A DNA stretch of 64,000 nt. Source: Planctomycetota bacterium (lineage in GTDB: Bacteria > Planctomycetota > UBA8108 > UBA1146). A program made the position numbers and the translations under genes. The notes below the pieces were generated by a model, which saw only the letters and a list, made by a program, of their open reading frames with translations, searched no databases and was not told where the DNA came from. How positions within the stretch are numbered: the first letter of the stretch is position 1; each line of letters opens with the position of its first letter. Shown here one piece after another: positions 2,257 to 61,667 of the stretch. Location of the stretch: assembly GCA_013911165.1 (NCBI GenBank), contig JACETR010000003.1, positions 170 to 64,169 of the forward strand. Reading direction: 5' to 3'.

Positions 2257-2392
2257 AGGTCCTCCGCTGACAGTGATTCTTGTGTCCCTATCATAGAATT
2301 TTTGAGAGTCATTTGTCGATATCACTGTGAAAACCCTGAATACTTCGGGGAGCGGTCCGCTTCCAGAGGCCAGAGCAAATAAAGGAGGAGTG

Positions 2393-20795: not shown

Positions 20796-22043
20796 ATGCT
20801 TCGATCGATGATGATCATGCTGACCATTGCAATGGCAGTTTCTTTTGTGCCTGCAGTTGCTATTGCGGGCGGTAGTGCATTTCAGTTCAGCCTGACTGGC
20901 GGTGCCGGTGCAGCAGGTGACAGCTTCACCTCTTCTGCGCTTTTGGACAATGCCGGTGGTGGAGACGTTCAGGGTTGGTCCTTCGGTGTCTGCAGTGACC
21001 CTGCAGCCCTGACCGTAGACGGAGCCGCCAGCGGTGCCGACACGGAGACCGCCAAGAACGGATCTGCTCCTGACTTCAACCAGATCAGTACTTTTGCTGA
21101 CGGTGCCACCCAGGGTGTGGTTCTCTGCTTCACCGGCTGTGCCGTGATCGGAGACACCTCCGGTTTCGAGATGCTGACGATCGATTACACGATCGCCGGT
21201 TCCTCTGACACCACCATCGACTACTGCGGAACTCTGGGAGCTCCCCCGGTGAACACCGTGGTCGTGGTTGGCGGAGCCAGCCTTGCTCCCGCCACCAGTG
21301 GTGGATTGATCGACGTGATCAACCCGAACCAGTTGAGCGCCTCCAGTGGAACCGCCGTCCTCGGTGACGCCGCTTCCACCACCGTGAGCTTCAACAACGT
21401 CAACTACCCGGCCATCGACGCCGTCCAGATTAACCTCGGATACGACAACACCGTCGTTTCTGCGGCTTCTGTCGACGCCGATTTCGCCTTCGAGACCTTC
21501 CTGGTTCAGGACTTCACCGGCAATGGTGGTGAGATTGTGGTTGGCGGCCTTGCCGACATCACTCCTCCTCTGGACGGACTGATTCCGGCCGGTGCCTCCA
21601 CCGACCTCTTCACCGTGACCTGGAACACCGACGCCGAGGGTACCTCCGCCATGACCTTCCCGGCCACCGCCGGTAGCCCGGCTCAGGATCTTCTCTTCGT
21701 TGCTGGTCAGTCCAGCCTGGAGACCCCGACCCTGATCGACGGTTCCCTGACCGTGGTGAACTTCAACCAGTTCCTGCGTTCCGACTGCAACAGTGACGGA
21801 ACCGTCAACATTGCGGACGGTGTTTACGGTATCAACTACCTCTTCCAGGGTGGTGCTGATCCGGTCTGTGACGACGCCTGTGACTCCAATGACGACGGTG
21901 CCATCGACGCCGCCGACATGATCTACATCTTCAACTACCGCTTCCTTGAGGGCCCGGCTCCGCTGGCACCCTTCCCGAGTGCGGACCTCGACCCGACCCC
22001 GGGCGACGGACTGGGATGTGACGGCGACGCCGACGATCTGTAG
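20796..22043 (+). CDS. Secreted protein with two cohesin-like beta-sandwich modules (tentative) and a C-terminal dockerin-like module
   Basis: 415-aa ORF with signal peptide MLRSMMIMLTIAMAVSFVPAVAIAGG. Cohesin-like core strings are DVQGWSFGVCSDPAALTV...VVLCF...FEMLTIDYTI and IDAVQINLGYDNTVVSAASV...LFTVTWNT. The tail is FLRSDCNSDGTVNIADGVYGINYLF...VCDDACDSNDDGAIDAADMIYIFNYRF. The CDS call is solid; the cohesin assignment needs HMM or structure confirmation. Confidence 0.6.
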   Translation: MLRSMMIMLTIAMAVSFVPAVAIAGGSAFQFSLTGGAGAAGDSFTSSALLDNAGGGDVQGWSFGVCSDPAALTVDGAASGADTETAKNGSAPDFNQISTFADGATQGVVLCFTGCAVIGDTSGFEMLTIDYTIAGSSDTTIDYCGTLGAPPVNTVVVVGGASLAPATSGGLIDVINPNQLSASSGTAVLGDAASTTVSFNNVNYPAIDAVQINLGYDNTVVSAASVDADFAFETFLVQDFTGNGGEIVVGGLADITPPLDGLIPAGASTDLFTVTWNTDAEGTSAMTFPATAGSPAQDLLFVAGQSSLETPTLIDGSLTVVNFNQFLRSDCNSDGTVNIADGVYGINYLFQGGADPVCDDACDSNDDGAIDAADMIYIFNYRFLEGPAPLAPFPSADLDPTPGDGLGCDGDADDL

Positions 22044-37041: not shown

Positions 37042-37536
37042 GGATCACCGGAGGCCTTGATTCCCCTTTCCGCCACAAAAGAAGTGAAAAGAACCGCCGG
37101 AATCACCGGGGGTTGAAATCCCTGGTTTGAGTGGGGGCATGCAAGTTCTTTATGACAGGTGATGTTCGTCACTCGGTGAAAATCCGGGAACGATTTCCGA
37201 ATCTTGCCCCACCCAAACAGCGTGCCCAAAAAAACTTTCAATAAACAGCCTTCAATGGATAACCACCCTAGGCAGATTACCGCTCAGGGATAAATTAGAG
37301 CCACTCTTCCAAAAACAATTCGGCCGGGAATCCCATCCCACAGGGCATGCAACCCATCCCTGGCTGTGGCACCTGCAACAGCCCCCTGTCACTTCGGTGA
37401 CTTTGCATCCCCTGCTTTCTTGGAGCTTCGGCCGTCCTAGACAAGTCAAACCCTGTTGTTTACCGGATTGGGAATTCCCCGGTCCTGAATACACCCTTTG
37501 CGACCTGCATTGTGCAGGTTTATTGGAGGTCAACCC

Positions 37537-48011: not shown

Positions 48012-48110
48012 ACGAATCCCCTACTCTTTCACGGCGAGTTGTGCCGTGAACAACACAACCTGGTTGACGCAAGGATCCCCCGTCTCTGCGTCATACCTAA
48101 TGGAGGTACG

Positions 48111-51100
48111 ATGTTCCCCCGTATCGCCCTTTACACAGGTGCACTCTTCTGTGTGCTGATCTTTGCTCAGGCTTCTGCCTCGGCTCAATGTCAGCCCACT
48201 GTGGACTGCAATCAAAACGGTGTCGCAGACCAATGTGATATTGATCTGGGTACAAGTGATGATTGCAATGGCAACCTGATCCCCGATGAGTGTGATCTCG
48301 AGCTCGCAACGAGTGAGGATTGCAATCTGGATGGAATCCCTGACGAGTGCAGCCCAGGCACCGCCGATCTGGTGGGCATCGGACTCGCATTTGGAGGAGG
48401 TTTCGGATCTGCCGTCGATTCCACCGCTGATTTTGCAGTGGTCGGTGCTCCCGATGATGATTTGTTGGGCACCAACACCGGATCTGCAAACATCTTCAAG
48501 CGTACCGGAACCCGCTGGGCCGAAGAGATGAAGATCTTCGGTGTGGCGGCCACATTGGAAGATCGTTTTGGAGCTGCTGTCGCCATCGAAGGTGACCTTG
48601 CAGCCATCGGCGCCCCCGGAAAACTCCAGGGTCGCGGAGCGGTCTTTCTTTATCGCAGGGTTGGCAATGGCTGGTGGAACTACGAGGGAACACTCACCGC
48701 CTTTGATGCCCCCCTTGGCGCCGCATTCGGCAGCGCCATCGCCATCGAAAATGAAACCATCTTTGTCGGAGCTCCAGGCACACTCAATGGCCTCGGTTCC
48801 GGCTCTGTTTACGTCTTTACCCATGAAAGTGGCATGTGGTTACAGGATCAGAAGTTGGAATCTGATCAGTTGACCGATGGGGACATGCTGGGTTGCTCGA
48901 TTGCTGTTCACGGAGGAACCGTGGCCATCGGTGCACCGGGTCACGAATCCGGTGGTGTAACCAACTCAGGAAGCGTTCTGATCTTTGAGGAATCCGCAGG
49001 TATCTACACTGAGAGTTTGATGCTGAGTGCAGAGACTCCCAGCCCGTTTGCGACCTTTGGATACTCTTTGGATGTCAATCATGACCATCTCTTGGTGGGA
49101 GCACCCGGTGAGAATGTTGACAGTGGTGCAGCCTATCTGCACAACCGCCTCGCCAGCATGTGGATTAACCAGCAAAAAATTGAACCCGAAGATATTGATG
49201 AGAGTGGTCTCTTTGGAGCCGACGTGGGGCTGGATGTCAAAACAGCCGTGATCAGCGCTCCTGCCGCAGGATCTGATCAGGGTCAGGTGGTGATCTACAG
49301 AAAGTCGGGTCTCGACTGGATCAAGGAAGCCCCCCTGAGTCCTGTCTCCGATCGAATCGCGGGAGATTTCTACGGAAGTTCGCTCAGTTGCCAACTTCCT
49401 TTCCTGATCGTCGGAAGTTCAGGAGACAGCAGCGGTAAGAGTATTTGGATCTCGGTATACAACGACTGCAATGAGAACCTTGAGGATGACATCTGTGATG
49501 TGACTCAGGGAATTGAAGCAGACTGCAACATGAACCTGATTCCTGACGCCTGTGAGATTGCCGACGGCACCAAACAGGATTGTGATGGAAATGGTGTCCC
49601 TGACGAATGCCAAATCTCTTCGGGTGAGTTGCTCGATTGCAACATGAACGGTGTTCCCGACGGTTGTGATGTCACCAGCGGATTCTCCCTGGATTGTAAT
49701 CAGGACCAGATTCCTGACGAATGCCAGGTGGATGCAGATCCCCTGTTGCCGACGATTTCCAACATGCCGAACCCTTTCAACGTCAGCACCGATCTGAATG
49801 AATGCGGAGCGGTTGTGACTTGGGACGAGCCGATTGCCACAGACAACTGCGGCATCGCTTCCCTTGAGACGACCCATCCTTCCGGGAGCTTCTTTTCCAC
49901 CGGCTTGACCATCGTGACCTACACCGCCACCGATGTCAGTGGAAACACTCGTGCAGCGATGTTCACTGTGGTGGTCACCGATGACGAGCTTCCGACCCTT
50001 ACAGGATTCCAGAATGTCGTTTCTGTGGATTCTTCAGAAGGAATCTGTGAGTTGGCCGTGAACTGGCCCGCTCCAAGCCCCGTGGACAACTGTGGAATCT
50101 TCTCAATGACTTCCACGCATCAGCCCGGTGATATCTTCCCCGTCGGTACCACGACGGTGACCTACACCCTGACTGATACCAATGGCAACGTTTCTGCCAT
50201 CAATCTGGATGTTGTCGTTGTCGATACGGTAGCTCCGGAAATCAGCGGAATGCCCGCTGACATCGATCTTCTGACCGAACCAGGAATCTGCACTCGTTTG
50301 GTGGAATGGGTCGAACCGGAAGCCAGCGATGATTGCAATGTCGCGTCTTTCACTTCAAACATTGCCAGCGGCACTGTCTTTGAATTGGGGACGACCACTG
50401 TTACCTACACCGTCATCGACGGTTGGGGGAACGTGGTTTCTTCCAGCTTCAATGTCACCATCAGGGATGAAGAACTTCCTGTTTTTGCGGCAGCACCTGC
50501 CGACATCGTTTCAGGAAATGACCCCGGTGAGTGCCACGCCCAAATTTCATGGGCTCCTGCCACCGTGCAGGACAACTGCGGAGTCAATTCTGTCGTCAGC
50601 AGCCATCAGCCTGGAGATATCTTCCCGCTGGGTGATACAGAAGTGACGATTACCGCAACGGATGACAACGGTAATGTGAACCTTCATCAGTTCACAGTTT
50701 CCATCCTTGATACAGAAGCGCCGTTGATCAGCAATATTCCGGAAGACTTTGTTCTCAACAATGACCCGGCCCAGTGCTCTGCTGTGGTCAACTGGCAGCT
50801 CCCGGGAATCTCCGACAACTGTGGAATCAGTGTCTTCTCCGGTACTGCCAACTCCGGAGATGCCTTCCCCATCGGAACGACAGTGGTGGAGTACACCCTG
50901 GTCGACAACTCCGGAAATCAGACCAACGCCAACTTCAGCATCACGGTGACCGATACAGAAATGCCGATCCTGCTCGGATTGCCGCAGGATATTTCGGTCT
51001 TCAACGACCCCGGACAGTGTGGTGCCAACGTGACATGGGAAGTTCCGACTCCATGGGACAACTGTGAATTGGTCGACTTTGACGGCTCTCACGAGCCGGG

Positions 51101-54100
51101 CGCTTTCTTCCCGAAAGGCACCACAGAGGTGACCTATCTGGTCATGGATGGAATGGGTCAGGTTACAACCGGGTCTTTCGATGTCTCCGTCGATGATGAC
51201 GAAGCTCCCCAGATCAGTGGTATGCCTGCAGACAGAACCATCTCTGCAGACGCAGGCCTTTGCTCTGCCATTCACAGCTGGACGGTTCCGGTACCTTCTG
51301 ACAACTGCGAAGTGGTTTCCTTTATCGCAACCCATGAGCCGGGAGAAGCTTTCCCGGTTGGAGTGACACAGGTTTCCTACACGGTGATCGACAGTATGGG
51401 AATGACCACGACTGACCAGTTCAGCATCACGGTGGTAGACAACGAAAATCCTCAGATCATCCGCATTCCTTCTGACATGACAGTCGTTGTCGAAGAGGGG
51501 GATTGCACCATTCCGGTCAGTTGGATCGCCCCCGATTCACAGGATAACTGCGCCATCGACACTTTCAGTCTCTCGCATGCATCCGGCAGTGAGTTCCCGG
51601 TCGGATTGACCACGGTGGAGATCAACACCGCTGATATTCATGGCAACACTTCTGCAGCCAGTTTCACTGTCACCGTTCTGGATCAGGAAACTCCTGTCAT
51701 CCTCAATCTTCCCGCAGACATTTCCCTCACTTCGGATGGAGATGCATGTGGAACGACGGTGACCTGGATTGAACCCCAGGGAGCTGACAACTGTTCTGTC
51801 AGTGACCTTTCTTCAGACCAGGTGAATGGCGAGTTCTACCCGGTGGGAATCACCGTGGTGACCTACAGCATTCTGGATGCTTCCGGGAACTCGGATGAGG
51901 CCAGTTTCGCCATCGAGATTACTGACACGACTGCTCCGGCATTTGTTGAGATTCCGCAGGGAATCCAGATGTCTACAGATCCGGGTCAGTGTGGAGCCAT
52001 CGTTTCCTGGAATCCGGTGACCGCAGATGACAACTGTGAAGTAGATACGATTTCCGGATCCCATTCTTCAGGCATGTTCTTCAATACTGGCATCACCACG
52101 GTCGATTACCTGGTGACGGATATTCATGGAAACCAGACCTCCCACAGCTTTGACGTGGAGATTCTGGATCAGGAGCAGCCGCAGATTATTGGAATCGACG
52201 AGAATATCGTGATGACCAATGATGGCGGACAGTGTGGAGCAAATGTCAGCTGGGTCCAGCCTGAAGCAACCGACAACTGCCTCGTCGACAGTTTGACCCA
52301 CAGCATTCCTTCCGGAGCCTTCTTCTCCGTGGGAACGACACAGGTCTCCTACCTTGCTGTCGACAACAGTGGCAATGAAACCGTCAAATCATTCAGTGTT
52401 ACCGTTGAAGATAACGAGAAGCCCGCCTTCGTGGCGATTCCCGAGCTGGTCAGCGGAACCACCACGGAAGGAACCTGCGACGGCATCGTGAACTGGGACG
52501 AAGTGACCGGAAGTGACAATTGCCTTGTCGATTCCATCACCCTGACCCACGCCTCCGGGGATGTCTTCCCCCTTGGTGATACGACGGTGACGGCAACGAT
52601 CACCGACATTCATGGAAACATGCACACCTCTGACTTCACCGTCAGGATCGAAGATGACGAGCTTCCCCAGTTGCTGGGTACGCCCACAGACCAGTTCAAG
52701 ATCAATGATCCCGGAGAGTGTGGCGCCATCGTGGATTGGATTATCCCGGGTACGTCTGACAACTGTCAGGTTCAGATCCTCGAGGGTACTCACGTTCCAG
52801 GCAGCTTCTTTGAGCGGGGAACCACGGTTGTCAGTTACACGGTGACCGATGCTTCCGGAAATTCCTACATGGAGAGCTTCGAGGTCAACATTGTCGATCT
52901 TGAGACCCCTGAGATTCTGGGAACCCCGGCAGATATCGTGGCCGTTGCGGACACCGGTTCCTGCGGAACGAACATCTCCTGGATTGAGCCGACCTCTACC
53001 GACAACTGCTCGGTTCAGGCGTTGATCTCCAGTCACAACCCCGGTGATTTCTTCATCACTGGAACGACAGTGGTTTCCTACACTTCACAGGATCCCACTG
53101 GAAACATCACCACCACACAATTCAATGTCACCATTCTGGATGAAGAGTTCCCGACCTTTGGAACTTTCCCTGAATCGGTCACTGTCAGCAACGACGCAGA
53201 TCAGTGTGGTGCGAGTGTCAGCTGGATCGAGCCCCAGATGCTCGACAACTGCAGCATTGGCAGCAGTGGATCTGATCATCAGTCCGGAGATTTCTTCCCG
53301 ATCGGCACGACAGTGGTGACCTACGAAATCGCTGACCCCTCGGGGAATACCATCAGCGACAGCTTCAGTATCACCGTAGAGGACACACAGGCACCGGACT
53401 TCCTGACCTTTGTCAGTAGCACGGTACTTGAGAATGATCCCGGAGAATGTGGAGCGGTTCACACCTGGGGTGTGCCGGAAGTGTTTGAAAACTGTCCGGA
53501 ACTTGAAGTGGTTTCTTCGCACAACCCCGGAGACTTCTTCAACACGGGTCTGACGGTGGTCAGTTACACCGCCACGGACGGTGCCGGTCTTGTGAGCCAG
53601 TTGATGTTTACGGTGATTGTTCTGGATACCGAGAACCCCCAGATCGCGGGCATGCCGGCTGATATCACCCAGGCCACGGATCTGGATTCCTGTGGCGCCA
53701 TCGTCGATTGGGCTGCTCCCCAGGCTTCTGACAACTGTGATGTTCTGAGTTTCACTTCTGACCATGCTCCGGGAGACTTCTTCCCCAAGGGCACGACGAC
53801 CGTGACCTACAGCGTTCTTGATACGGCTGGTTTGCTCGTGACGGAGAGCTTCAATGTCACCATCCTTGATCAGCAGCTGCCCTCCATTACTGCCATGCCG
53901 CAGAGCGTGACCATCAACAGTCAAAACGGACTGTGCGGATCCATGCATGCATGGGATCTTCCTCAGTCTTCTGACAACTGTCCGGATCATGTCTTCTCTG
54001 GTTCTCACCAGCCTGGAGACTTCTTTGAGGTCGGATCGACCACTGTTGCCTACACGGCCATCGACAGTAGCGGAAATGTATCTTCTGCAGACTTTGTCGT

Positions 54101-57100
54101 GACGGTTGTGGACAATGAAAACCCTGAGATTGTTGGTGCGCCGCAGGACATGGTGATCATTGCAGACGAAGGTGTCTGCAGCATGCTTGTCATGTGGGAT
54201 GCCCCGACATTCGAAGACAACTGTGGAATTGACACCTTTGCCATTTCCCGTGAATCCGGCAGTGAGTTCCTTCTCGGAGACACACTGGTAGAAATTACCA
54301 CGACTGATATCCACGGAAACTCTTCGGCGGCCAGCTTCACTGTGACGATTCTCGACCAGGAGCTTCCGCAAGTCGTCGATCTTCCGGCGGACATGAGTGT
54401 CGAAAATGATCTCGACAGCTGTGGGGCCGTCGTTTCATGGATTGAACCGACCTCCAGCGACAACTGTGAAGTGACCTCTTTGACTGGAAATCAGATCAAT
54501 GGCGGGACCTACCCGATTGGAATCACTGTGGTGGAGTACACCGTGGTGGATTCTTCCGGAAATACGAATCTTGCCAGTTTCCAGATTGAAGTGTTGGACA
54601 CCCAGCTGCCGGAACTCTTTGCCATGCCGGACTCTGTTCTGCAGGTCAATGACGCCGGTGCATGTGGAGCAGTGATCGGCTGGGATCTTCCCCAGACTTC
54701 AGATAACTGCCCTGATCAGATTCTGACGAGCACCCATAACCCCGGAGACTTCTTCAGTGTTGGTGAGACTACGGTTTCCTACACAGTGACGGACGCTTCC
54801 GGAAACACCCGCAGCCTGAGTTTCGATATCCAGATTGTCGATCTTGAGATTCCGGTGGTGGTGGATGGTCCTCAGGACATTCTGGTTGAGGCCGAACAGG
54901 GACTGTGCGGTAGCACCATTTCCTGGATCGAGCCGACTGCGATCGACAACTGTGAAGTTTTCGATCTCAAGCCGAGTAACTACCCGGGTGAGTTCTTCGC
55001 TGTGGGTACAACGCTTGTTTCCTACACCGCCATCGATACCACCGGCAACATCGCCGTGCATGTGTTCAATGTCACGGTTGAGGATACTCAGGCTCCGATT
55101 ATCGACGGTTTGACCGGAGACATTTCCGTCAATACCGATTTCAATCAGTGTGACGCCATCGTCACATGGACTGAGCCCACCATTAGCGACAACTGCACGG
55201 TGGTCTCTGCCAATGTCGATATCTCCTCTGGAACCGCATTCCCGATTGGTACGACGACGGTCACATACACTGTGATTGATTCCGCCGGTCTCGAGACAGT
55301 CCAGAGCTTCGACGTCACGGTTTCTGACAACCAGATTCCGACATTCGAAAACATTCCCGGAAATGTGGTTCTGTCCGTGGAGCCCGGCACCTGCCAGAGC
55401 CTCCATCACTGGATTGAGCCGACGATTACAGATAACTGTCCCGGATTGACCGTGACTGCGAGCCATCAGCCAGGAGATTCGTTCCCCGTAGGCCTGACCA
55501 TCGTCAGCTACCAGGCAGCGGATGCCCATGGCCAGAGCAGGCAGATCATGTTCACCGTGGTCGTTCAGGATGACGAAAACCCAGTCCTTGCCGGTATTCC
55601 GGAAGATGTCATTCTCGAGAATGACCTGGATCAGTGTGGTGCCGTTCACCAATGGGTAGAACCGACCGCTTCGGACAACTGCGCCACGGTCGGATTCAAC
55701 ACGACTCACCCGAGCGGTTCCTTCTTTGATCTGGGAACGACGGAAGTCGTCTACTCCGTCTCTGATCCGAGTGGAAACATGGTTTCTGCCAGTTTCAATG
55801 TGACGGTGGTGGACCTTCAGCTTCCTGAGTTCGTGACGGTTCCGGAGACCGTTTCCCTGAATACCGATCCGGGTGTTTGTGGTGCGGCCCATTACTGGGA
55901 TCTGCCCAACGTCTATGACAACTGTGAAGAGATCAATCTCGCCTCCAGCCATCAGCCGGGGCACGTATTCCCGATCGGAACCACAGTGGTGACCTACACG
56001 GCGCAGGACCCGACCGGCAATGTTGTGAGTACTGATTTCTCAGTGACTGTCAGCGACTTTGAGGATCCCGACTTCGAGGGAATCCCGGGTACGATCACAG
56101 TGAACACCGAGCCGGGTCTCTGTGATGCAGCGGTCGATTGGGTTGCCCCTATTGCTGTGGATAACTGTGAAGTGCAGTCCCATTCCAGCAGCCATCAGCC
56201 GGGTGACCGCTTCGAGTTGGGTCAAACTTCTGTGATCCTTTCGGCCACAGACATCTACGGTAACGACTTTACGACCTCCTTCCTGGTGATCGTGGAAGAC
56301 CATGAACTTCCGGTGATCAGTGGAATGCCCGAATCGGTGACGATTCCCAGCATTCAGGGTTTCTGTGGTGCGTCTCACCTCTGGGATTCCCCAACCGCTT
56401 CTGATAACTGCGACACTTTGGCACCGACTGCTGATTACCTCAGTGGACACTTCTTCCCTGTTGGATCGACGACTGTGACCTACTCAGTGACCGATGAAAG
56501 CGGCAACTACACCGAGGATTCGTTCATCGTCACAGTTGAAGATGTTGAAGCACCGGTGTTTACCGCCATTAGCACAGATTACACCGTCTCTGCTGACGCT
56601 GATCAGTGTGGAACGGCAGTCATCTGGCCCGACGCAGAGGCTTCCGACAACTGCGGTGTCGACAGCATTACCTACGACAGAACAAACGGTCTGTTCCTTG
56701 AACTGGGCGACCACCCGGTCAATGTCACAGTGACAGATATTCACGGACTTCAGACCACACAACAGTTCGTCATTACCGTTGTCGATGACACGGCACCGGT
56801 GATCCACGATCTCCCCGCTGACATTCAGCTGACAGCCACCGAGGGTCAGTGTGGAGCAGTGGCTACATGGATTGAGCCGACCTCCACCGACAACTGCCCG
56901 GGCAGATTGCTGGCCAACAACATTCCGTCAGGAAGCTTCTTCCTTGTCGGTCAAACGACTGTCTCCTACGTGTCTACCGATGCCTCAGGAAATACGACGA
57001 CAGAGTCCTTCACGGTGACGGTCGAAGATGATCAGTTGCCGACCCTTGCGGGTATTCCCGACGATATCGTTGTCAGCAATGATCAGGGTATCTGTGGAGC

Positions 57101-60100
57101 CCAGGTTTCATGGACCCCGCCCGCTGCTCTGGATAACTGCGGGATTGAAACCCACGTGTCGAGTTACAACCCGGGTGACCTGTTCAATCTGGGAACGACG
57201 ACCGTGGAAATCGTCGCCACTGATTACAGTGGAAACTCCGTGACGGGCACCTTCCTGGTTACCGTCGAAGATACGGAGGCACCGGGGATTGCCAATCTTC
57301 CGGAGAACATGACCGTTGAGTCTGAGGTCGGCATGTGTGGTGCCAATGTCAGCTGGGTGGAGCCCTTCACCGTTGACAACTGTGCCACCGGAACACTGGT
57401 TTCAGACATCGCCAATGGAGCGTACCTCAATGTGGGTCTCCACCAGGTGACTTACACAGCGACCGATCTTCATGGCAACGTCACGACAGATTCGTTCTCG
57501 ATTGAAGTGGTCGACGCTGAAACCCCAATCATCCTGAGCGCACCTTCCTCTGTTGAAATCCAGGTGCAGGATGGGCTGTGCGGTTCGATTTACAGTTGGT
57601 TTGAGATTCAGGCAACCGACAACTGTGCCATCGACAGCATCACCAATAGTCATGAGAGTGGGTCTTTCTTCCCGAAAGGAACCACGCTTGTTCAGCAGAC
57701 CGTCAGTGACGCTGCAGGTAACAGTGTTTCTCATGAGTTTGAAGTGACCGTGGTCGACCACGAGGCTCCGCAGTTCAGCTCTTCGATTTCAGGGCTCAGC
57801 CTTCAGAGCGTCAGTGGTGCATGTGGAACCAGTGCTTCATGGACTGAGCCGGAGATTTCCGATAACTGTGAAATCGCCAGTTTGACCAAATCCCATGAGC
57901 CTGGAGACTTCTTCGAAGTGGGTGAAACTCTGGTGACCTACACTCTCGTCGATGGAAGTGGCAATGAGACCAGCATCGATTTCCTCGTGTCGGTTGAAGA
58001 CGTTGAGGCTCCGGTGATCTCTGGCCTTCAAAGTTCAGTTTCCGTATCCACGGATCCGGGATTCTGCGGAGCAACCGTTTACTGGGATGCTCCTGTGATC
58101 ACCGACAACTGCCTTGTTGACAACATTCTGTCTACCCATCAGCCGGGCGACTTCTTCCCGGTTGGCAACACGGTTGTGACCTACAGCGTTTCTGACAACT
58201 CTGAGTTGGTTACCACCGTTGAGTTCCTGATCACTGTTACCGACAATGAGACGCCTCAGATCAACAACATTCCTTCGATCGACCTGATCGAAACGGAGCC
58301 GGGTCTTTGCGGTGCAGTTGTTGCATGGAGTTCTCCGAGTGTGACCGACAATTGCCAAGTGACGAGCTTGACCTCAGACATCCAGAATGGAACCTTCCTG
58401 GAAATCGGTCAGCACACCATCGTCTTCACCGCCCTCGACATTCACGGTAATGAATCGACGGCCGGATTTACTGTGACGATCATTGACGGAGAGGCACCGA
58501 CGATCACCGATCTTCCCACTGTGGTCGAGGGTGTGAGGACCAGTGACAGCTGCATGGGCAGCGTTAACTGGGCAGAGCCCCTGATCAGTGATAACTGCGG
58601 AGAGTTCGCATTGGAAACGAGTCACCAGAGTGGAGATTCCTTCAACCTTGGAATCACCACGGTGACTTACACTGCCACCGATCTGCAGGGCAATACCCAA
58701 TCAGCCAGCTTCGAAGTACACATCGCGGATGTCCATGGCCCCGAGATCAGTGGCTTGCCGCTGGAAATCAGCAGCGATACGGATCCGGATTCCTGCCTGG
58801 CCATCGTGGACTGGGCTGAGGCGTCTGTAATGGATCATTGTGGCGATTTCAATCTTGAGAAAACCCACGAGCCGGGTACTGCTTTCCCCGTGGGAACCAC
58901 GGAAGTGGTTTACACCGCGACCGATCTGGCTGGAAACGTCACACAGGTCAGCTTCCCTGTGACCGTAACGGACGTTCAGGCTCCCCTGATCACGCTGATT
59001 CCCGAGGATCAGACGATTCTGGCCAATGAGGATGAGTGCACCATGATCGCCAACTGGCCAGCACCGACTGCTACCGACAACTGTGGAGTGGCGTCCATCG
59101 TCACCAGCCACAACTCTGGTGACCTTTACCCGGTCGGTGTAAATACTGTTGAGATTCTGGTGACGGACGTTCATGGAAACACCACGACCGCCTCTTTCCA
59201 GATTAACGTGATCGACAGTATTGATCCGATTCTGACCGGAGTTCCCGCAGATATCACGACGGTATCTGATCCGACAATCTGTGGTGCGGAAATCACTTGG
59301 GTCGAGCCCAACGTGATTGAGAACTGTGCTCTGCTGAAGTTGGAATCGGACTATGCACCTGGAACGATTTTCCCTGTGGGTCTGACGGTCGTGAATTACG
59401 TGGCTGTTGACCTCAGCGGCAACAGCACCTCCGCTTCTTTCACTGTCACGGTGATTGATGATGAGGCTCCGACTATCGAGATTCCTGTCCCGGTGATCGT
59501 GGATGCTCCTGAGGGCTCTTGCGAAGTCTTCGTCGAGGTTCCGCTGTTGGAGGTCTATGACCGCTGTGGTGTTTCCCAAATCACCAACAGCTTCAACGGT
59601 ACAGCTGATGCTTCGGGGATTTACCCCCGTGGTGAAACCCTGATCCTCTGGTCGGTCAGTGACGAGAGTGGAAACATTTCGACGATCACTGGAGTGGTCA
59701 GTGTTCAGGTCAGTGGACCGGACTGTAATGCCAATGGTGTCCCCGACGTGTGCGATATCGCAGAAGACATTTCCACAGACTGTAACCAGGATGGCATTCC
59801 TGACGAGTGCCAGGCTGACTGCGACGACGATGGCATTCTCGACGTCTGTGAAATCACTCAGGGACTCGTCCTCGACTGTGATTTGGATGGAGTGCCCGAC
59901 GATTGTCAGATCGCTTCTGGAATCGCAGCGGACTGTGACGGTGACGGACTGATCGACTCTTGCGAGATTCTGACCGGATCTGGTCTCGACTGTGACAACA
60001 GCGGGGTTCTGGATTCGTGTGAGATTGCGCAGGGTACTGTTGCGGATTGCAACAACAACGGTCAGCCGGACCTTTGCGACATTGCTCTGGGAGTCGAAAG

Positions 60101-61667
60101 TGACTGCAACAACGATGGAATTGCTGACGCATGTCAGATCGCCAGCGGATCTGAAGTTGACTGTAACGCTGACGGCGTGATTGACACTTGTGAGTTGGCC
60201 AACGGTTCTGCTTCCGACTGTAATGGCAACGGAACGCTGGACGTTTGTGACCTCGCCACCGGAAATGCAGATGATTGCAACCAGAACTCGATTCCGGATT
60301 CCTGTGACATCGCTTCCGGTATCGCATTCGACTGCAATGCCAATGGTCAGTTGGATATCTGTGATATCGAGCAGGGCCTGGCAGACGACTGTGACACCAA
60401 CAACGTTCCTGATGCCTGCGACGTGGCTTCCGGTGCAACACCGGACTGTAACAGCAATGGCATTCCGGATTCCTGTGACCTTTCGAGCGGTGCCTCTGAA
60501 GACTGCAATGGAACGGGAATCCCGGACAGTTGTGAAGTCGCCAGTGGTGCGACACCGGACTGTAATGGCAATGGTGTTCCGGACAGCTGTGATTTGGCCA
60601 ACGGAACAGCAGATTGTGACAACAACAATGTGCCCGACAGTTGCCAGATCGCTTCTGGAGAATCACCGGATTGTAATGGCAATGGTGTACCGGACGCCTG
60701 TGATATCAGCTCCGGTGCGGCGCTTGATTGCAACACCAATGGAGTTCCTGATTCCTGTGAGGTGGCTAACGGACAGGCTGCAGACTGCAACAGCAATGGA
60801 ATCCCCGACAGCTGTGATATCGCCAGCGGCGTTGAATCTGACTGCAACTCTTCTGGTGTGCCCGACAGTTGTGAGGTGACCAGCGGTACTGCGCTGGATT
60901 GCAACGACAACGGTATTCCGGACAGCTGCGATATTGCCTCAGGCAACTGGCAGGACTGTGATGCCGACGGCAACCTGGACAGTTGCGAAATTCTGGTGGG
61001 TACTGAGCAAGACTGCAACGGTACCGGAATCCCTGACGCATGTGAGATTCTCTCCGGTGCTGCCGACGATTGTGACGGCAACCAGATTCCGGACAGTTGT
61101 GATCTCGTGACAGGCGTTCTTTCTGATTGCGATCAGAATGGCACCCCGGATACCTGCGATATCCTCGCTGGGGGTGTTGAGGATTGCGACGGAAACCAGG
61201 TTCCCGACAGCTGCGATTTGCTCACTGGTACTCTGGAAGACTGCAACCAGAATGCGGTTCCGGACTCTTGCGAAATCGCTGCCGGTGATACAGAGGACTG
61301 TGATGGCAACGGAATCCCCGACTCCTGCGACATTGCTGCAGGCCTTCTGTTGGACGCCAACCTCGACGGAATCCCGGACCAGTGTCAGCTGAACTTCCTC
61401 AGGGGAGACGGCAATGACGACGGGATCGTCAACATCGCTGACGGTATCTTCCTGCTTCAAAGCCTCTTTGCTGACGGAGCGGATTCCACCTGTAATGATG
61501 CGGCGGATGCCAATGACGACAGTTCAATCGACGTATCCGACGTGATCAGCATTCTTGGATACCAATTCAATGGAACCAATCCTCCTCCTGCTCCTTACCC
61601 GAACTGCGGAGTTGATCCTGCAGGCGGAGTGAGCCTCGGGTGTGAGGCCTACACCAGTTGTCCCTGA
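48111..61667 (+). CDS. Giant secreted adhesin-like protein 3 (~4,518 aa): 3 + 5 + 30 Cys-bracketed Ca-loops, FG-GAP region, 41 HYR modules and a dockerin-like C-terminus
   Basis: ORF 48039..61667, with the start at ATG 48111 (GGAGG 48103-48107; MFPRIALYTGALFCVLIFAQASASAQ signal). FG-GAP-like units are present (FGSAVDSTADFAVVGAPDDD, FGAAVAIEGDLAAIGAPG). HYR cores were hand-counted from CGAVVTWDEPIATDNCGI to CEVFVEVPLLEVYDRCGV. Confidence 0.95.
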   Translation: MFPRIALYTGALFCVLIFAQASASAQCQPTVDCNQNGVADQCDIDLGTSDDCNGNLIPDECDLELATSEDCNLDGIPDECSPGTADLVGIGLAFGGGFGSAVDSTADFAVVGAPDDDLLGTNTGSANIFKRTGTRWAEEMKIFGVAATLEDRFGAAVAIEGDLAAIGAPGKLQGRGAVFLYRRVGNGWWNYEGTLTAFDAPLGAAFGSAIAIENETIFVGAPGTLNGLGSGSVYVFTHESGMWLQDQKLESDQLTDGDMLGCSIAVHGGTVAIGAPGHESGGVTNSGSVLIFEESAGIYTESLMLSAETPSPFATFGYSLDVNHDHLLVGAPGENVDSGAAYLHNRLASMWINQQKIEPEDIDESGLFGADVGLDVKTAVISAPAAGSDQGQVVIYRKSGLDWIKEAPLSPVSDRIAGDFYGSSLSCQLPFLIVGSSGDSSGKSIWISVYNDCNENLEDDICDVTQGIEADCNMNLIPDACEIADGTKQDCDGNGVPDECQISSGELLDCNMNGVPDGCDVTSGFSLDCNQDQIPDECQVDADPLLPTISNMPNPFNVSTDLNECGAVVTWDEPIATDNCGIASLETTHPSGSFFSTGLTIVTYTATDVSGNTRAAMFTVVVTDDELPTLTGFQNVVSVDSSEGICELAVNWPAPSPVDNCGIFSMTSTHQPGDIFPVGTTTVTYTLTDTNGNVSAINLDVVVVDTVAPEISGMPADIDLLTEPGICTRLVEWVEPEASDDCNVASFTSNIASGTVFELGTTTVTYTVIDGWGNVVSSSFNVTIRDEELPVFAAAPADIVSGNDPGECHAQISWAPATVQDNCGVNSVVSSHQPGDIFPLGDTEVTITATDDNGNVNLHQFTVSILDTEAPLISNIPEDFVLNNDPAQCSAVVNWQLPGISDNCGISVFSGTANSGDAFPIGTTVVEYTLVDNSGNQTNANFSITVTDTEMPILLGLPQDISVFNDPGQCGANVTWEVPTPWDNCELVDFDGSHEPGAFFPKGTTEVTYLVMDGMGQVTTGSFDVSVDDDEAPQISGMPADRTISADAGLCSAIHSWTVPVPSDNCEVVSFIATHEPGEAFPVGVTQVSYTVIDSMGMTTTDQFSITVVDNENPQIIRIPSDMTVVVEEGDCTIPVSWIAPDSQDNCAIDTFSLSHASGSEFPVGLTTVEINTADIHGNTSAASFTVTVLDQETPVILNLPADISLTSDGDACGTTVTWIEPQGADNCSVSDLSSDQVNGEFYPVGITVVTYSILDASGNSDEASFAIEITDTTAPAFVEIPQGIQMSTDPGQCGAIVSWNPVTADDNCEVDTISGSHSSGMFFNTGITTVDYLVTDIHGNQTSHSFDVEILDQEQPQIIGIDENIVMTNDGGQCGANVSWVQPEATDNCLVDSLTHSIPSGAFFSVGTTQVSYLAVDNSGNETVKSFSVTVEDNEKPAFVAIPELVSGTTTEGTCDGIVNWDEVTGSDNCLVDSITLTHASGDVFPLGDTTVTATITDIHGNMHTSDFTVRIEDDELPQLLGTPTDQFKINDPGECGAIVDWIIPGTSDNCQVQILEGTHVPGSFFERGTTVVSYTVTDASGNSYMESFEVNIVDLETPEILGTPADIVAVADTGSCGTNISWIEPTSTDNCSVQALISSHNPGDFFITGTTVVSYTSQDPTGNITTTQFNVTILDEEFPTFGTFPESVTVSNDADQCGASVSWIEPQMLDNCSIGSSGSDHQSGDFFPIGTTVVTYEIADPSGNTISDSFSITVEDTQAPDFLTFVSSTVLENDPGECGAVHTWGVPEVFENCPELEVVSSHNPGDFFNTGLTVVSYTATDGAGLVSQLMFTVIVLDTENPQIAGMPADITQATDLDSCGAIVDWAAPQASDNCDVLSFTSDHAPGDFFPKGTTTVTYSVLDTAGLLVTESFNVTILDQQLPSITAMPQSVTINSQNGLCGSMHAWDLPQSSDNCPDHVFSGSHQPGDFFEVGSTTVAYTAIDSSGNVSSADFVVTVVDNENPEIVGAPQDMVIIADEGVCSMLVMWDAPTFEDNCGIDTFAISRESGSEFLLGDTLVEITTTDIHGNSSAASFTVTILDQELPQVVDLPADMSVENDLDSCGAVVSWIEPTSSDNCEVTSLTGNQINGGTYPIGITVVEYTVVDSSGNTNLASFQIEVLDTQLPELFAMPDSVLQVNDAGACGAVIGWDLPQTSDNCPDQILTSTHNPGDFFSVGETTVSYTVTDASGNTRSLSFDIQIVDLEIPVVVDGPQDILVEAEQGLCGSTISWIEPTAIDNCEVFDLKPSNYPGEFFAVGTTLVSYTAIDTTGNIAVHVFNVTVEDTQAPIIDGLTGDISVNTDFNQCDAIVTWTEPTISDNCTVVSANVDISSGTAFPIGTTTVTYTVIDSAGLETVQSFDVTVSDNQIPTFENIPGNVVLSVEPGTCQSLHHWIEPTITDNCPGLTVTASHQPGDSFPVGLTIVSYQAADAHGQSRQIMFTVVVQDDENPVLAGIPEDVILENDLDQCGAVHQWVEPTASDNCATVGFNTTHPSGSFFDLGTTEVVYSVSDPSGNMVSASFNVTVVDLQLPEFVTVPETVSLNTDPGVCGAAHYWDLPNVYDNCEEINLASSHQPGHVFPIGTTVVTYTAQDPTGNVVSTDFSVTVSDFEDPDFEGIPGTITVNTEPGLCDAAVDWVAPIAVDNCEVQSHSSSHQPGDRFELGQTSVILSATDIYGNDFTTSFLVIVEDHELPVISGMPESVTIPSIQGFCGASHLWDSPTASDNCDTLAPTADYLSGHFFPVGSTTVTYSVTDESGNYTEDSFIVTVEDVEAPVFTAISTDYTVSADADQCGTAVIWPDAEASDNCGVDSITYDRTNGLFLELGDHPVNVTVTDIHGLQTTQQFVITVVDDTAPVIHDLPADIQLTATEGQCGAVATWIEPTSTDNCPGRLLANNIPSGSFFLVGQTTVSYVSTDASGNTTTESFTVTVEDDQLPTLAGIPDDIVVSNDQGICGAQVSWTPPAALDNCGIETHVSSYNPGDLFNLGTTTVEIVATDYSGNSVTGTFLVTVEDTEAPGIANLPENMTVESEVGMCGANVSWVEPFTVDNCATGTLVSDIANGAYLNVGLHQVTYTATDLHGNVTTDSFSIEVVDAETPIILSAPSSVEIQVQDGLCGSIYSWFEIQATDNCAIDSITNSHESGSFFPKGTTLVQQTVSDAAGNSVSHEFEVTVVDHEAPQFSSSISGLSLQSVSGACGTSASWTEPEISDNCEIASLTKSHEPGDFFEVGETLVTYTLVDGSGNETSIDFLVSVEDVEAPVISGLQSSVSVSTDPGFCGATVYWDAPVITDNCLVDNILSTHQPGDFFPVGNTVVTYSVSDNSELVTTVEFLITVTDNETPQINNIPSIDLIETEPGLCGAVVAWSSPSVTDNCQVTSLTSDIQNGTFLEIGQHTIVFTALDIHGNESTAGFTVTIIDGEAPTITDLPTVVEGVRTSDSCMGSVNWAEPLISDNCGEFALETSHQSGDSFNLGITTVTYTATDLQGNTQSASFEVHIADVHGPEISGLPLEISSDTDPDSCLAIVDWAEASVMDHCGDFNLEKTHEPGTAFPVGTTEVVYTATDLAGNVTQVSFPVTVTDVQAPLITLIPEDQTILANEDECTMIANWPAPTATDNCGVASIVTSHNSGDLYPVGVNTVEILVTDVHGNTTTASFQINVIDSIDPILTGVPADITTVSDPTICGAEITWVEPNVIENCALLKLESDYAPGTIFPVGLTVVNYVAVDLSGNSTSASFTVTVIDDEAPTIEIPVPVIVDAPEGSCEVFVEVPLLEVYDRCGVSQITNSFNGTADASGIYPRGETLILWSVSDESGNISTITGVVSVQVSGPDCNANGVPDVCDIAEDISTDCNQDGIPDECQADCDDDGILDVCEITQGLVLDCDLDGVPDDCQIASGIAADCDGDGLIDSCEILTGSGLDCDNSGVLDSCEIAQGTVADCNNNGQPDLCDIALGVESDCNNDGIADACQIASGSEVDCNADGVIDTCELANGSASDCNGNGTLDVCDLATGNADDCNQNSIPDSCDIASGIAFDCNANGQLDICDIEQGLADDCDTNNVPDACDVASGATPDCNSNGIPDSCDLSSGASEDCNGTGIPDSCEVASGATPDCNGNGVPDSCDLANGTADCDNNNVPDSCQIASGESPDCNGNGVPDACDISSGAALDCNTNGVPDSCEVANGQAADCNSNGIPDSCDIASGVESDCNSSGVPDSCEVTSGTALDCNDNGIPDSCDIASGNWQDCDADGNLDSCEILVGTEQDCNGTGIPDACEILSGAADDCDGNQIPDSCDLVTGVLSDCDQNGTPDTCDILAGGVEDCDGNQVPDSCDLLTGTLEDCNQNAVPDSCEIAAGDTEDCDGNGIPDSCDIAAGLLLDANLDGIPDQCQLNFLRGDGNDDGIVNIADGIFLLQSLFADGADSTCNDAADANDDSSIDVSDVISILGYQFNGTNPPPAPYPNCGVDPAGGVSLGCEAYTSCP
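49731..59714 (+). repeat. Array of 41 HYR modules (40 canonical plus 1 divergent terminal module)
   Basis: Hand count of the C..W..P...DNC cores. The array length divided by 243 nt gives about 41. Confidence 0.85.
59721..61388 (+). repeat. 30 tandem copies of the 19-aa (57-nt) Cys-bracketed EF-hand-like loop
   Basis: 556 aa running from DCNANGVPDVCDIAEDIST to DANLDGIPDQCQ. Twenty-seven units are exactly 19 aa. There are two Cys per unit, and I could find no Lys or Arg in the whole stretch. Confidence 0.9.
61395..61664 (+). other. Dockerin-like module with Cys-rich tail (giant 3)
   Basis: FLRGDGNDDGIVNIADGIFLLQSLF...STCNDAADANDDSSIDVSDVISILGYQF...NCGVDPAGGVSLGCEAYTSCP-stop. Confidence 0.75.

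What the first reader, a model, noticed from the sequence alone, without database searches (positions are those of the whole stretch)
59721..61388. 556-aa polyanionic stalk: 30 tandem 19-aa units, each an EF-hand-type loop bracketed by two cysteines, with no Lys or Arg
The unit consensus is D-C-N-x-N-G-[IV]-P-D-S-C-[DE]-[IL]-A-S-G-x-x-x. Numbering from the first Asp, the acidic/amide residues sit at positions 1, 3, 5, 9 and 12, with Gly at position 6. That is the ligand spacing of a canonical 12-residue EF-hand or dockerin Ca2+ loop. Cys is added at positions 2 and 11.

Twenty-seven of the 30 units are exactly 19 aa. I found no Lys or Arg in the entire 556 aa. There are about 60 Cys and well over 100 Asp/Glu.

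Shorter arrays of the same unit flank the FG-GAP region in every paralog (4; 3+15+4; 3+5; 3 and at least 8). The unit resembles thrombospondin type-3 repeats in spirit but is not identical to them.

I infer a Ca2+-rigidified, disulfide-stapled spacer that sets the distance between the dockerin-like end and the HYR array. Its copy number (4 versus 30 at the C-terminal position) may tune reach.
Basis: partly seen in the sequence, partly recalled or inferred. Interest (0 to 1): 0.7.

Follow-up and report, generated by a model that had tools for sequence, protein, structure and literature searches.

The report
Disulfide-laddered calcium-loop repeat stalk
A giant surface protein of a marine planctomycete carries 30 tandem 19-residue calcium-loop-plus-helix units, apparently tied each to the next by a disulfide; the repeat belongs to a very large family that Pfam and NCBIfam do not name and that has no solved structure.

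Summary
Window 59721-61388 (+) encodes residues 3895-4450 of a 4,542-codon ORF. It holds 30 in-register units, 27 of them exactly 19 aa, with consensus D-C-[ND]-x-[ND]-G-[IV]-P-D-x-C-[DE]-I-A-x-G-x-x-x. It has 59 Cys, 124 Asp/Glu and no Lys, Arg or His.

The units are old (about 50% aa and 55% nt identity to each other) and under strong purifying selection (dN/dS 0.03). Orthologs keep the copy number: 30, 30 and 28.

The repeat is not rare. A profile finds 11,810 protein clusters, mostly Planctomycetota. No Pfam or NCBIfam model reaches threshold on the window array; EF-hand models fall just short.

AlphaFold2 with a 111-sequence alignment gives pLDDT 94.9: loop (positions 1-8), helix (9-15), linker. 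Foldseek finds no PDB match.

The main correction concerns the cysteines. Cys2 of unit i and Cys11 of unit i+1 are kept or lost together, while the two Cys within a unit are not. This implies an inter-unit disulfide ladder, as in thrombospondin type-3 repeats, not a staple within each loop.

The C-terminal 92 aa contain a genuine dockerin-type module. A Ca2+-rigidified stalk next to the anchor is the best reading. Ca2+ binding is untested.

The parts
48111..61667 (+). Gene for the giant secreted protein. The ORF is listed from TTG 48039; the probable start is Met at 48111. Order of modules: signal peptide, cap Cys + 3 units, FG-GAP propeller, 5 units, about 41 HYR domains, 30 units, dockerin-type module.
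   Evidence: ORF list. Translation. Pfam: FG-GAP_2 E 2e-46 and HYR E 2e-136. Cys counts per region.
48189..48377 (+). N-terminal cap cysteine (C-Q-P-T-V-D-C) followed by 3 repeat units, before the propeller.
   Evidence: The same C-x-P-x-V-DC cap occurs in the paralogs at 37498.. and at the window end.
48378..49463 (+). Integrin-alpha-like FG-GAP beta-propeller (7 FG-GAP_2 matches), inserted between two repeat arrays.
   Evidence: Pfam PF14312, 156 bits, 7 stretches.
49464..49763 (+). 5 repeat units after the propeller.
49764..59720 (+). About 41 HYR domains, with 82 Cys (two per domain).
   Evidence: Pfam HYR: 12 stretches in the first 1,000 aa scanned. Cys count.
59721..61388 (+). The finding: 30 tandem units (27 x 19 aa) of a Ca2+-loop + short helix repeat, with 59 Cys and no K, R or H.
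   Evidence: AF2 on units 18-21: pLDDT 94.9.
59778..59816 (+). Short 13-aa unit (unit 2), a conserved junction variant in which the helix and linker are cut to one residue.
   Evidence: Same position in orthologs L005-L008 and in the paralog C-terminal arrays. 13-aa junctions are common family-wide: 460 in 139 representatives.
61353..61388 (+). Terminal unit DANLDGIPDQCQ, which lacks Cys2 but keeps Cys11. This is the end rule expected if Cys2(i) pairs with Cys11(i+1).
   Evidence: 168 C-terminal end units in the family show the same pattern. 17 of 19 units directly preceding a dockerin show it.
61389..61664 (+). Dockerin-type double Ca2+-loop module (about 60 aa) plus a conserved Cys-rich tail that ends in C-P.
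   Evidence: A profile of 5 paralog and ortholog tails hits solved type I dockerins, best 2y3n_B at E 4.3e-7. The single sequence scores 16.3 bits on Pfam Dockerin_1, below the threshold of 22.9.

Best explanation
The segment is a folded, rod-like module of 30 tandem loop-helix units in a secreted giant adhesin-like protein of a marine planctomycete.

Proposed mechanism:
- Each unit is a Dx[DN]x[DN]G-type calcium loop (positions 1-12; oxygen ligands at 1, 3, 5, 9 and 12; Gly at 6). The loop runs into a short helix (positions 9-15) and a Gly-containing linker.
- Probably one Ca2+ is bound per unit.
- Neighbouring units are linked covalently by a disulfide between Cys2 of unit i and Cys11 of unit i+1. 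That gives 29 interleaved bonds, a ladder along the whole array.
- This is the thrombospondin type-3 principle: Ca2+-filled loops tied to the next loop at position 11. Here it is applied to a 19-residue unit with a helix.
- The array sits directly before a dockerin-type module. It most likely acts as a stiff, protease-resistant, strongly anionic stalk or connector between the cell-proximal anchor and the roughly 41-domain HYR array and distal FG-GAP propeller.

Shown: the repeat, its conservation, its family size, the confident predicted loop-helix fold, the Cys co-occurrence rule, and the dockerin.

Inferred: Ca2+ binding, actual disulfide formation, rigidity, and the stalk role.
For: - Anatomy and invariant ligand positions.
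- Purifying selection: dN/dS 0.032 against the 98%-identical ortholog.
- Positional orthology of units: 26 of 30 units best match the same index at 81% identity. The unit count is conserved at 30, 30 and 28, with identical irregular spacings.
- Fold: AF2 on 4 units with 111 sequences gives pLDDT 94.9 and pTM 0.78, with helices at unit positions 9-15.
- Calcium-loop resemblance: EF-hand models score just below threshold on the window. Family members reach or approach EF-hand, Dockerin_1 and TSP3_bac thresholds.
- Disulfide topology, Cys2(i) versus Cys11(i+1). At 19-aa spacing: 1,246 both, 5 neither, 4 discordant. At 13-aa junctions: 227 both, 111 neither, 5 discordant (Fisher p 3e-84).
- The topology result is replicated on 139 independent representatives. 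At 19-aa spacing: 1,533 both, 2 neither, 5 discordant. At 13-aa junctions: 323 both, 115 neither, 9 discordant.
- End rules: first units lack Cys11 (198 cases) and last units lack Cys2 (168 cases).
- TSP3 link: canonical TSP_3 repeats abut these units in homologs. The spacing from the DNC cysteine to Cys11 of the next loop is 20 residues, the same as the TSP1 disulfide C856-C876 (PMC6526912).
- Array-to-dockerin junction: it recurs in 19 of 27 dockerin starts, and the tail is a true dockerin type.
- Modular use: the repeat is joined to many unrelated extracellular domains, as linkers are.
Against: - There is no experimental or structural evidence for Ca2+ binding.
- Positions 3 and 5 are mostly Asn, and position 8 is Pro rather than the hydrophobic residue of EF-hands.
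- The unit profile is not detectably related to the adjacent dockerin loops (hhalign probability 0.09%) or to any solved structure.
- Two of the five AF2 models were poor (pLDDT 49.8 and 41.2). A 7-unit run with a 25-sequence alignment failed (pLDDT 39.5).
- Cys11 of unit 1 has no partner within the array (59 Cys is an odd number).
- The stalk role is inferred from position only. Paralogs with 0 or 4 units at this position show that the long array is not required for this architecture.
Confidence: 0.6

Rival explanations
1. One reading: each EF-hand-type loop is closed by its own Cys2-Cys11 disulfide, an intra-unit staple, giving a string of independent stapled loops.
For: Cys2 and Cys11 flank the loop, and an 8-residue disulfide loop is sterically possible. 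Most units (77%) carry both Cys.
Against: - Cys2 and Cys11 of the same unit are discordant in 626 of 2,744 units.
- Cys2(i) and Cys11(i+1) are discordant in under 1% of pairs.
- Array-initial units lose Cys11 and array-final units lose Cys2. This includes the window's own last unit, DANLDG...QC. An intra-unit pair would be lost together.
Confidence: 0.07
2. The array is mainly a binding or sequestering surface rather than a spacer. It could be a high-capacity polyanionic cation binder (Ca2+, Mg2+, trace metals or lanthanides), or a Ca2+-bridged adhesive for anionic algal polysaccharides, mineral particles or the cell's own envelope.
For: - 22% Asp/Glu and no basic residue.
- Dx[DN]xDG loops in other proteins serve regulatory as well as structural roles (PMC3123361).
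- The family is joined to lectins, sulfatase-modifying enzymes and propellers, suggesting a polysaccharide-facing lifestyle.
Against: - The variable positions (4, 10, 15, 17-19) show no conserved surface patch.
- The repeat is used promiscuously between unrelated domains and right before dockerins, like a connector.
- The whole protein, not only the array, is K/R-poor.
Confidence: 0.2
3. The segment is an intrinsically disordered acidic linker. The periodicity would then be a relic of amplification without a defined fold, or the cysteines would ligate a metal instead of forming disulfides.
For: The first AF2 attempt gave pLDDT 39.5. The composition is low in complexity.
Against: - With a deeper alignment AF2 gives pLDDT 94.9.
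- 11 of 19 positions are strongly conserved across thousands of units.
- dN/dS is 0.03.
- The units are not recently amplified: 55% nt identity and no TRF hit.
- The protein has a signal peptide, so the Cys residues face an oxidising compartment.
Confidence: 0.05

Closest known systems
Thrombospondin type-3 repeats (Pfam TSP_3, PF02412; structures 1UX6, 1YO8, 3FBY)
   Same: - Tandem Asp/Asn-rich Dx[DN]xDG..D..D calcium loops, often with G-[IV]-P-D.
- A disulfide ties each loop, at loop position 11, to a cysteine of the preceding motif.
- Both are extracellular.
- In several homologs a canonical TSP_3 repeat is fused directly to these units, with the TSP1-like 20-residue Cys spacing.
   Different: - No TSP_3 hit on the window array at E <= 1.
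- No thrombospondin among the PDB profile hits or the Foldseek hits.
- The partner cysteine sits at position 2 of the preceding loop (28 residues upstream), not in a DNC motif.
- The period is 19 aa, with a predicted helix. TSP3 wires are described as lacking secondary structure and as binding two Ca2+ per motif (my own knowledge of Kvansakul 2004; the paper could not be retrieved).
- Positions 3 and 5 are mostly Asn, which suggests one Ca2+ per unit.
Bacterial TSP3 repeat (Pfam TSP3_bac, PF18884)
   Same: A short bacterial D-x-D-x-D-G-[IV]-P-D calcium-loop repeat. One Asp-rich homolog segment scores 29.2 bits, above the threshold of 25.
   Different: The window array and most family members do not reach the threshold: 2 of 111 segments hit at E <= 0.01. 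TSP3_bac has no Cys2/Cys11 pair.
EF-hand and dockerin 'F-hand' calcium loops (PF00036, PF13202, PF00404)
   Same: A 12-residue loop with ligands at 1, 3, 5, 9 and 12 and Gly at 6, followed by a helix that starts near position 9. Asp at position 12, as in dockerins. Scores are near threshold.
   Different: - Below the gathering scores on the window.
- Pro at position 8, with the hydrophobic residue at position 7.
- No entering helix and no paired-hand domain.
- Cysteines at positions 2 and 11.
- hhalign against the protein's own dockerin gives probability 0.09%.
Ca2+-rigidified extender regions of giant bacterial adhesins (for example the Ig-like repeats of RTX adhesins such as MpIBP)
   Same: Functional analogy only: many tandem small units in a giant surface protein, stiffened by Ca2+ to project a distal ligand-binding region (my own knowledge).
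   Different: The fold is unrelated (beta-sandwich there, loop-helix here). There are no disulfides, and the secretion and anchoring systems differ.

Membership tests
EF-hand (PF00036 / PF13202 / PF13405) | Profile score at or above the Pfam gathering threshold | tested here: not met
   Whole array: EF-hand_5 17.1 bits against 25.9, EF-hand_1 15.8 against 25.4. Units 3-10: 23.0 and 22.4 bits. Only 6-8 of 111 family segments hit at E <= 0.01.
EF-hand (PF00036 / PF13202 / PF13405) | 12-residue loop with oxygen ligands at positions 1, 3, 5, 9 and 12 and Gly at 6 | tested here: met
   D1 30/30, [ND]3 30/30, [NDST]5 30/30, G6 24/30, D9 30/30, [DEQ]12 30/30.
EF-hand (PF00036 / PF13202 / PF13405) | Hydrophobic residue at loop position 8, Glu at position 12, helix-loop-helix, paired hands | tested here: not met
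   Position 8 is Pro in 22/30 units. Position 12 is Asp 15, Glu 10, Gln 5. AF2 shows loop-helix units separated by only a 4-residue linker and no entering helix.
Thrombospondin type-3 repeat (PF02412) | Profile match to TSP_3, or sequence or fold match to solved thrombospondin T3 wires | tested here: not met
   No TSP_3 hit at E <= 1 on the array. No thrombospondin in the PDB phmmer or profile search at E <= 10. Foldseek against PDB found 0 matches.
Thrombospondin type-3 repeat (PF02412) | Disulfide from the preceding motif to position 11 of the next calcium loop | tested here: inconclusive
   Co-occurrence of Cys2(i) with Cys11(i+1) supports an analogous inter-unit bond. However, the partner cysteine is at a different position, and no bond was observed directly.
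Thrombospondin type-3 repeat (PF02412) | Two Ca2+ ions per DxDxDGxxDxxD motif | not testable with these tools
   No metal-aware prediction and no experiment were available.
Bacterial TSP3 repeat (PF18884) | Profile score at or above the gathering threshold (25 bits) | tested here: not met
   No hit on the window array. One Asp-rich homolog segment reaches 29.2 bits, and 2 of 111 segments hit at E <= 0.01. The family is adjacent to this model, not contained in it.
Dockerin type I (PF00404), for the repeat unit | Homology of the unit to the duplicated dockerin F-hand segment | tested here: not met
   hhalign of the unit profile A4 against the dockerin-tail profile A3 gives probability 0.09% and E 0.58.
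Dockerin type I (PF00404), for the C-terminal 92 aa | Two F-hand segments that match solved dockerins | tested here: met
   Profile A3 hits 2y3n_B (E 4.3e-7), 2mte_A, 1daq_A and about 20 further dockerins over positions 4-61. The single sequence is below the Pfam threshold, 16.3 bits against 22.9.
Dx[DN]xDG calcium-binding motif class (Rigden & Galperin) | Linear motif D-x-[DN]-x-[DN]-G with a further acidic ligand downstream | tested here: met
   24 of 30 units carry G6. All 30 carry D1 and [ND]3. Position 5 is N or D in 26 units and S or T in 4. All carry D9 and [DEQ]12. The motif class is described in PMC3123361. Ca2+ binding itself is not tested.
DUF7151 (PF23657) | Profile score at or above the gathering threshold (27.2 bits) | tested here: not met
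   15.6 bits on window units 3-10. The best family segment scores 26.1 bits. 10 of 111 segments hit at E <= 0.01.

The most novel reading that the evidence does not exclude
The repeat may be a fold family that is unnamed in Pfam and NCBIfam and has no match among solved structures, despite more than 11,000 protein clusters. Its disulfide ladder may run on across inserted domains. Whole globular modules would then be looped out of one continuous Ca2+/disulfide wire, with the flanking units covalently stapled to each other. Here that would apply to the FG-GAP propeller and, more speculatively, to the 41-domain HYR array.

In this protein the cysteine bookkeeping fits exactly. The mature protein has 164 Cys. 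The only Cys left unpaired by the ladder rule are Cys2 of the last unit before each insertion and Cys11 of the first unit after it.
Probability: 0.3. Interest if true: 0.7.

Novelty: new variant of a known kind. Interest (0 to 1): 0.55.

Why it matters
Giant surface proteins are a hallmark of Planctomycetota, and they are almost entirely uncharacterised. This 19-residue unit is one of their commonest building blocks: 11,810 clusters at 50% identity. No Pfam or NCBIfam model reaches threshold on it, it has no solved relative, and I found no literature mention of its sequence motif.

A confident predicted fold plus a sequence-derived disulfide map give a concrete, testable model: a calcium-filled, disulfide-laddered rod. 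The model links bacterial proteins to the thrombospondin type-3 'calcium wire' of animal extracellular matrix.

If the model is confirmed:
- it would justify a new family model for genome annotation;
- it would help explain how these bacteria build very long, seawater-stable appendages;
- it would offer a compact, modular, Ca2+-dependent rigid linker for protein engineering.

Tried and rejected
1. AF2 on 7 units with a 25-sequence in-register alignment failed (pLDDT 39.5). An earlier alignment built from overlapping windows was useless, because MAFFT slid the copies onto each other.
2. Sequence and profile searches of the PDB gave only chance-level hits to EF-hand proteins and a dockerin-like protease fragment.
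3. Foldseek of the good model against PDB and BFVD found nothing. This may partly reflect the small, loop-rich query.
4. NCBIfam gave nothing meaningful.
5. A literature search for the motif strings (NGIPDSCD, DCNGNG and others) returned 0 papers. The Kvansakul 2004 paper could not be retrieved.
The single-protein query worked.
7. hhalign of the unit against the adjacent dockerin showed no relationship. I therefore dropped the idea that the array is an amplified dockerin half-site.
8. I considered that the leftover Cys553 and Cys3905 close the HYR array into a loop. Paralog 9705..16634 keeps both end cysteines of its 4-unit array without any downstream array. The idea is therefore kept only as speculation.
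9. I considered a recently expanded, hypervariable repeat. This is rejected by 55% nt identity between units, no TRF signal, and a conserved copy number in orthologs.
Full report
**What is there**

Window 59721-61388 on the + strand translates without a stop codon into 556 residues. They are residues 3895-4450 of a 4,542-codon ORF, 48039..61667. The probable start is the Met at 48111, followed by a signal-peptide-like sequence (MFPRIALYTGALFCVLIFAQASASA).

Read in periodic register, the segment holds 30 units: 27 of 19 aa, one of 13, one of 18, and a final one of 12. The invariant or near-invariant positions are:
- D1 (30/30)
- C2 (29/30)
- [ND]3 (30/30)
- [NDST]5 (30/30)
- G6 (24/30)
- [VI]7 (24/30)
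- P8 (22/30)
- D9 (30/30)
- C11 (30/30)
- [DEQ]12 (30/30)
- [ILV]13
- A14
- G16 (27/28)

The composition is 102 Asp, 22 Glu, 49 Asn and 59 Cys, with no Lys, Arg or His. Composition-preserving shuffles give 0.04 regex matches on average, against 30 observed.

One qualification applies. The rest of this protein contains only 1.19% Lys+Arg, so zero in 556 residues is unusual (expected 6.6, P about 0.001) but not extraordinary.

**Protein and organism**

Pfam places seven FG-GAP_2 blades (E 2e-46) near the N-terminus and a long HYR array (E 2e-136 in the first 1,000 residues scanned) in the middle. The 82 Cys in 3,319 residues imply about 41 HYR domains.

The last 92 residues score below threshold on Dockerin_1 as a single sequence. 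A profile of five paralog and ortholog tails, however, hits solved type I dockerins: 2y3n_B at E 4.3e-7, and about 20 more. So the 'dockerin-like end' is real. It carries an extra Cys-rich tail that ends in C-P.

Neighbouring genes are planctomycete-typical (DUF1579; DUF7133-HEAT-cytochrome c). The closest genomes are marine MAGs:
- 98% identity to 'bacterium bin129'
- 81% to Planctomycetia bacterium TMED53
- 63% to two Planctomycetota MAGs

**Age and constraint of the array**

- TRF detects no DNA tandem repeat here.
- The units are on average 50% (aa) and 55.5% (nt) identical to each other, with a maximum of 74% nt.
- Against the 98% ortholog, dN/dS is 0.032.
- The orthologs at 98% and 81% identity have exactly 30 units with the same irregular spacings: 19, 13, 19 x13, 18, 19 x13.
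- The 63% orthologs have 28 units.
- At 81% identity, 26 of 30 units still best match the unit with the same index.

This is an old, individually conserved array. It is not a recently expanded or hypervariable one.

**How common it is, and whether it is named**

A word-indexed search saturated at 6,604 proteins. An exhaustive profile search of 1.84 billion cluster representatives found 11,810 proteins at E <= 1e-3, and 2,357 at E <= 1e-30.

Source names and genome titles are mostly Planctomycetota and Phycisphaerae. There are also hits in Acidobacteria bacterium Mor1 and in MAGs labelled Deltaproteobacteria, Bdellovibrionota and Eiseniibacteriota.

The partner domains are diverse: FGE-sulfatase, C-type lectin, Laminin_G_3, TIG, PKD, beta-helix, FG-GAP, HYR and dockerin. 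Contiguous arrays reach 41, 38 and 34 units elsewhere, so 30 is large but not unique.

No model names the repeat:
- No Pfam-A or NCBIfam model reaches threshold on the window array.
- EF-hand_5 and EF-hand_1 fall just short, at 23.0 against 25.9 bits and 22.4 against 25.4 bits on units 3-10.
- Of 111 four-unit family segments, only 6-10 hit EF-hand models, Dockerin_1 or DUF7151 at E <= 0.01, and 2 hit TSP3_bac.
- One Asp-rich segment passes TSP3_bac, at 29.2 bits against 25.
- No paper in the library contains the motif strings.

**Relation to thrombospondin type-3 repeats**

In several homologs a canonical TSP_3 repeat (for example DSDGDGVADLIDNCPTIANPMQ) is followed at once by a unit of this family (aDCNGNGIGDACELAAG...). 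In these hybrids the DNC cysteine lies 20 residues before Cys11 of the next loop. That is the spacing of the TSP1 disulfide C856-C876, which ties a DNC motif to position 11 of the following calcium loop (PMC6526912).

The family is thus a neighbour of TSP3. The window array itself matches neither the TSP_3 model nor any thrombospondin structure.

**Fold**

A first AF2 run, with 7 units and 25 sequences, failed (pLDDT 39.5). With 4 units (residues 4211-4286) and 111 diverse in-register segments, the best model has mean pLDDT 94.9 and pTM 0.78. The five models scored 94.9, 94.0, 83.2, 49.8 and 41.2.

Each unit forms a loop (positions 1-8), a helix (positions 9-15) and a short linker. This is the loop-plus-exiting-helix geometry of EF-hand and dockerin 'F-hands', without an entering helix.

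Foldseek finds no match in the PDB or in BFVD. Coordinates were not exposed, so distances could not be measured.

**Cysteine connectivity: the main correction**

I defined units by the acidic and amide ligands and required at least one Cys per unit. I then tabulated which cysteines are kept or lost together.

In homologs, loci and the window:

| Pair compared | Both present | Neither | Discordant |
|---|---|---|---|
| Cys2(i) vs Cys11(i+1), 19-aa spacing | 1,246 | 5 | 4 |
| Cys2(i) vs Cys11(i+1), 13-aa junctions | 227 | 111 | 5 |

Fisher's test for the 13-aa junctions gives p 3e-84.

By contrast, Cys2 and Cys11 of the same unit are discordant in 626 of 2,744 units. Cys11(i) and Cys2(i+1) are discordant in 348 of 1,255 pairs.

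The result replicates on 139 independent representatives at under 50% identity:

| Pair compared | Both present | Neither | Discordant |
|---|---|---|---|
| Cys2(i) vs Cys11(i+1), 19-aa spacing | 1,533 | 2 | 5 |
| Cys2(i) vs Cys11(i+1), 13-aa junctions | 323 | 115 | 9 |

Array-initial units typically lack Cys11 (198 cases). Array-final units lack Cys2 (168 cases). The window's last unit, DANLDGIPDQCQ, follows this rule, as do 17 of 19 units that directly precede a dockerin.

The simplest reading is a ladder of disulfides Cys2(i)-Cys11(i+1). That gives 29 bonds in this array, and it is the same logic as in TSP3. It is not a staple closing each loop on itself.

**Across inserted domains**

- Last units keep Cys2 in 80% of cases when another array follows an inserted domain, and in 48% when none does.
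- First units keep Cys11 in 84% of cases against 43% (p 1e-13 and 3e-25).

In this protein the bookkeeping is exact. The mature protein has 164 Cys. An N-terminal cap Cys can pair with Cys11 of unit 1. Cys95 before the propeller can pair with Cys486 after it. The only remaining unpaired residues are Cys553 (last unit before the HYR array) and Cys3905 (Cys11 of the first unit of the 30-unit array).

A staple across the propeller is plausible. A staple across 41 HYR domains is speculation. The paralog at 9705.. argues against a strict rule, because it keeps both end cysteines without a downstream array.

**Function**

The module most likely works as a Ca2+-loaded, disulfide-laddered, strongly anionic rod that connects the dockerin-type anchor to the HYR array and the distal propeller. 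The evidence is:
- its position;
- the recurrent array-to-dockerin junction;
- its promiscuous use between unrelated domains;
- the conserved length among orthologs.

The 'tuning reach' idea is weak. Paralogs with 0 or 4 units at this position exist, and 30 small units add little to about 41 HYR domains.

A role as a cation-binding or Ca2+-bridged adhesive surface cannot be excluded. Ca2+ binding, disulfide formation and rigidity are all inferred.

**Verdict**

The calcium-loop type, the TSP3 likeness, the dockerin neighbour and the lack of a name in Pfam and NCBIfam all hold. It is wrong on the cysteine topology.

I rate this a new variant of a known kind: a Dx[DN]xDG / TSP3-like calcium repeat with its own period, helix and disulfide register. 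It is widespread, but neither library searched here names it.

Noticed in passing
window 20796-22043 (+): A 415-aa secreted protein has a Pfam Cohesin match (30.2 bits, threshold 24.1). Its C-terminal dockerin-type module (Dockerin_1, 26 bits) is of the same FxRxDxNxDG...CDDxxDxNDDG type as the tails of the giant proteins. It is a candidate docking partner or adaptor, compare the 'planctosome' proposal in PMC6461901.
   Followed up: partly
window 44364-46271 (+), inside ORF 37498..47964: TRF finds a 243-nt DNA tandem repeat (7.9 copies, 73% matches), which corresponds to HYR domains of the paralog. So HYR domains there were amplified more recently than the 19-aa units, which give no DNA-level repeat signal.
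   Followed up: no
window 48189-48209; also 37498.. and about 62200 (N-termini of the paralogs): A conserved extra cysteine sits 6 residues before Cys2 of the first unit, right after the signal peptide (AQCQPTVDC, AQCDPVVDC, QVCPPTVDC). It is a likely cap partner for Cys11 of unit 1 under the ladder rule.
   Followed up: partly
window 61569-61664; also the C-termini of ORFs 9705..16634 and 37498..47964: After the dockerin-type module, all paralogs and orthologs share a Pro-rich, Cys-rich tail (PPxAPFxNCGVDxxxxxxLGCExYxxCP) that ends exactly in C-P. Its function is unknown; it might be a sorting or anchoring signal.
   Followed up: no
window 59778-59816; family-wide: 13-aa short units recur at fixed places, after the second unit of an array. 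At these junctions Cys2(i) and Cys11(i+1) are either both present or both absent (about one third of cases), as if the junction can be a break point of the disulfide ladder.
   Followed up: partly
window 48111-61667: The whole 4,518-aa mature protein is extremely poor in basic residues (1.19% K+R outside the array) and has 14% D+E.
   Followed up: no
window 1153-2325 (-): A 390-aa protein has a C-terminal Redoxin / AhpC-TSA / thioredoxin-fold domain. It might be an envelope thiol-disulfide oxidoreductase. It lies about 46 kb from this cysteine-rich gene, and nothing links the two.
   Followed up: no
Homologs P0010, P0025, P0046, P0114, P0031: Canonical TSP_3 repeats (DxDxDGxxDxxDNCPxxxNPxQ) are fused directly to DC[DN]xDGxGDAC units at the start of arrays. 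This looks like an evolutionary bridge between TSP3 repeats and this family.
   Followed up: partly
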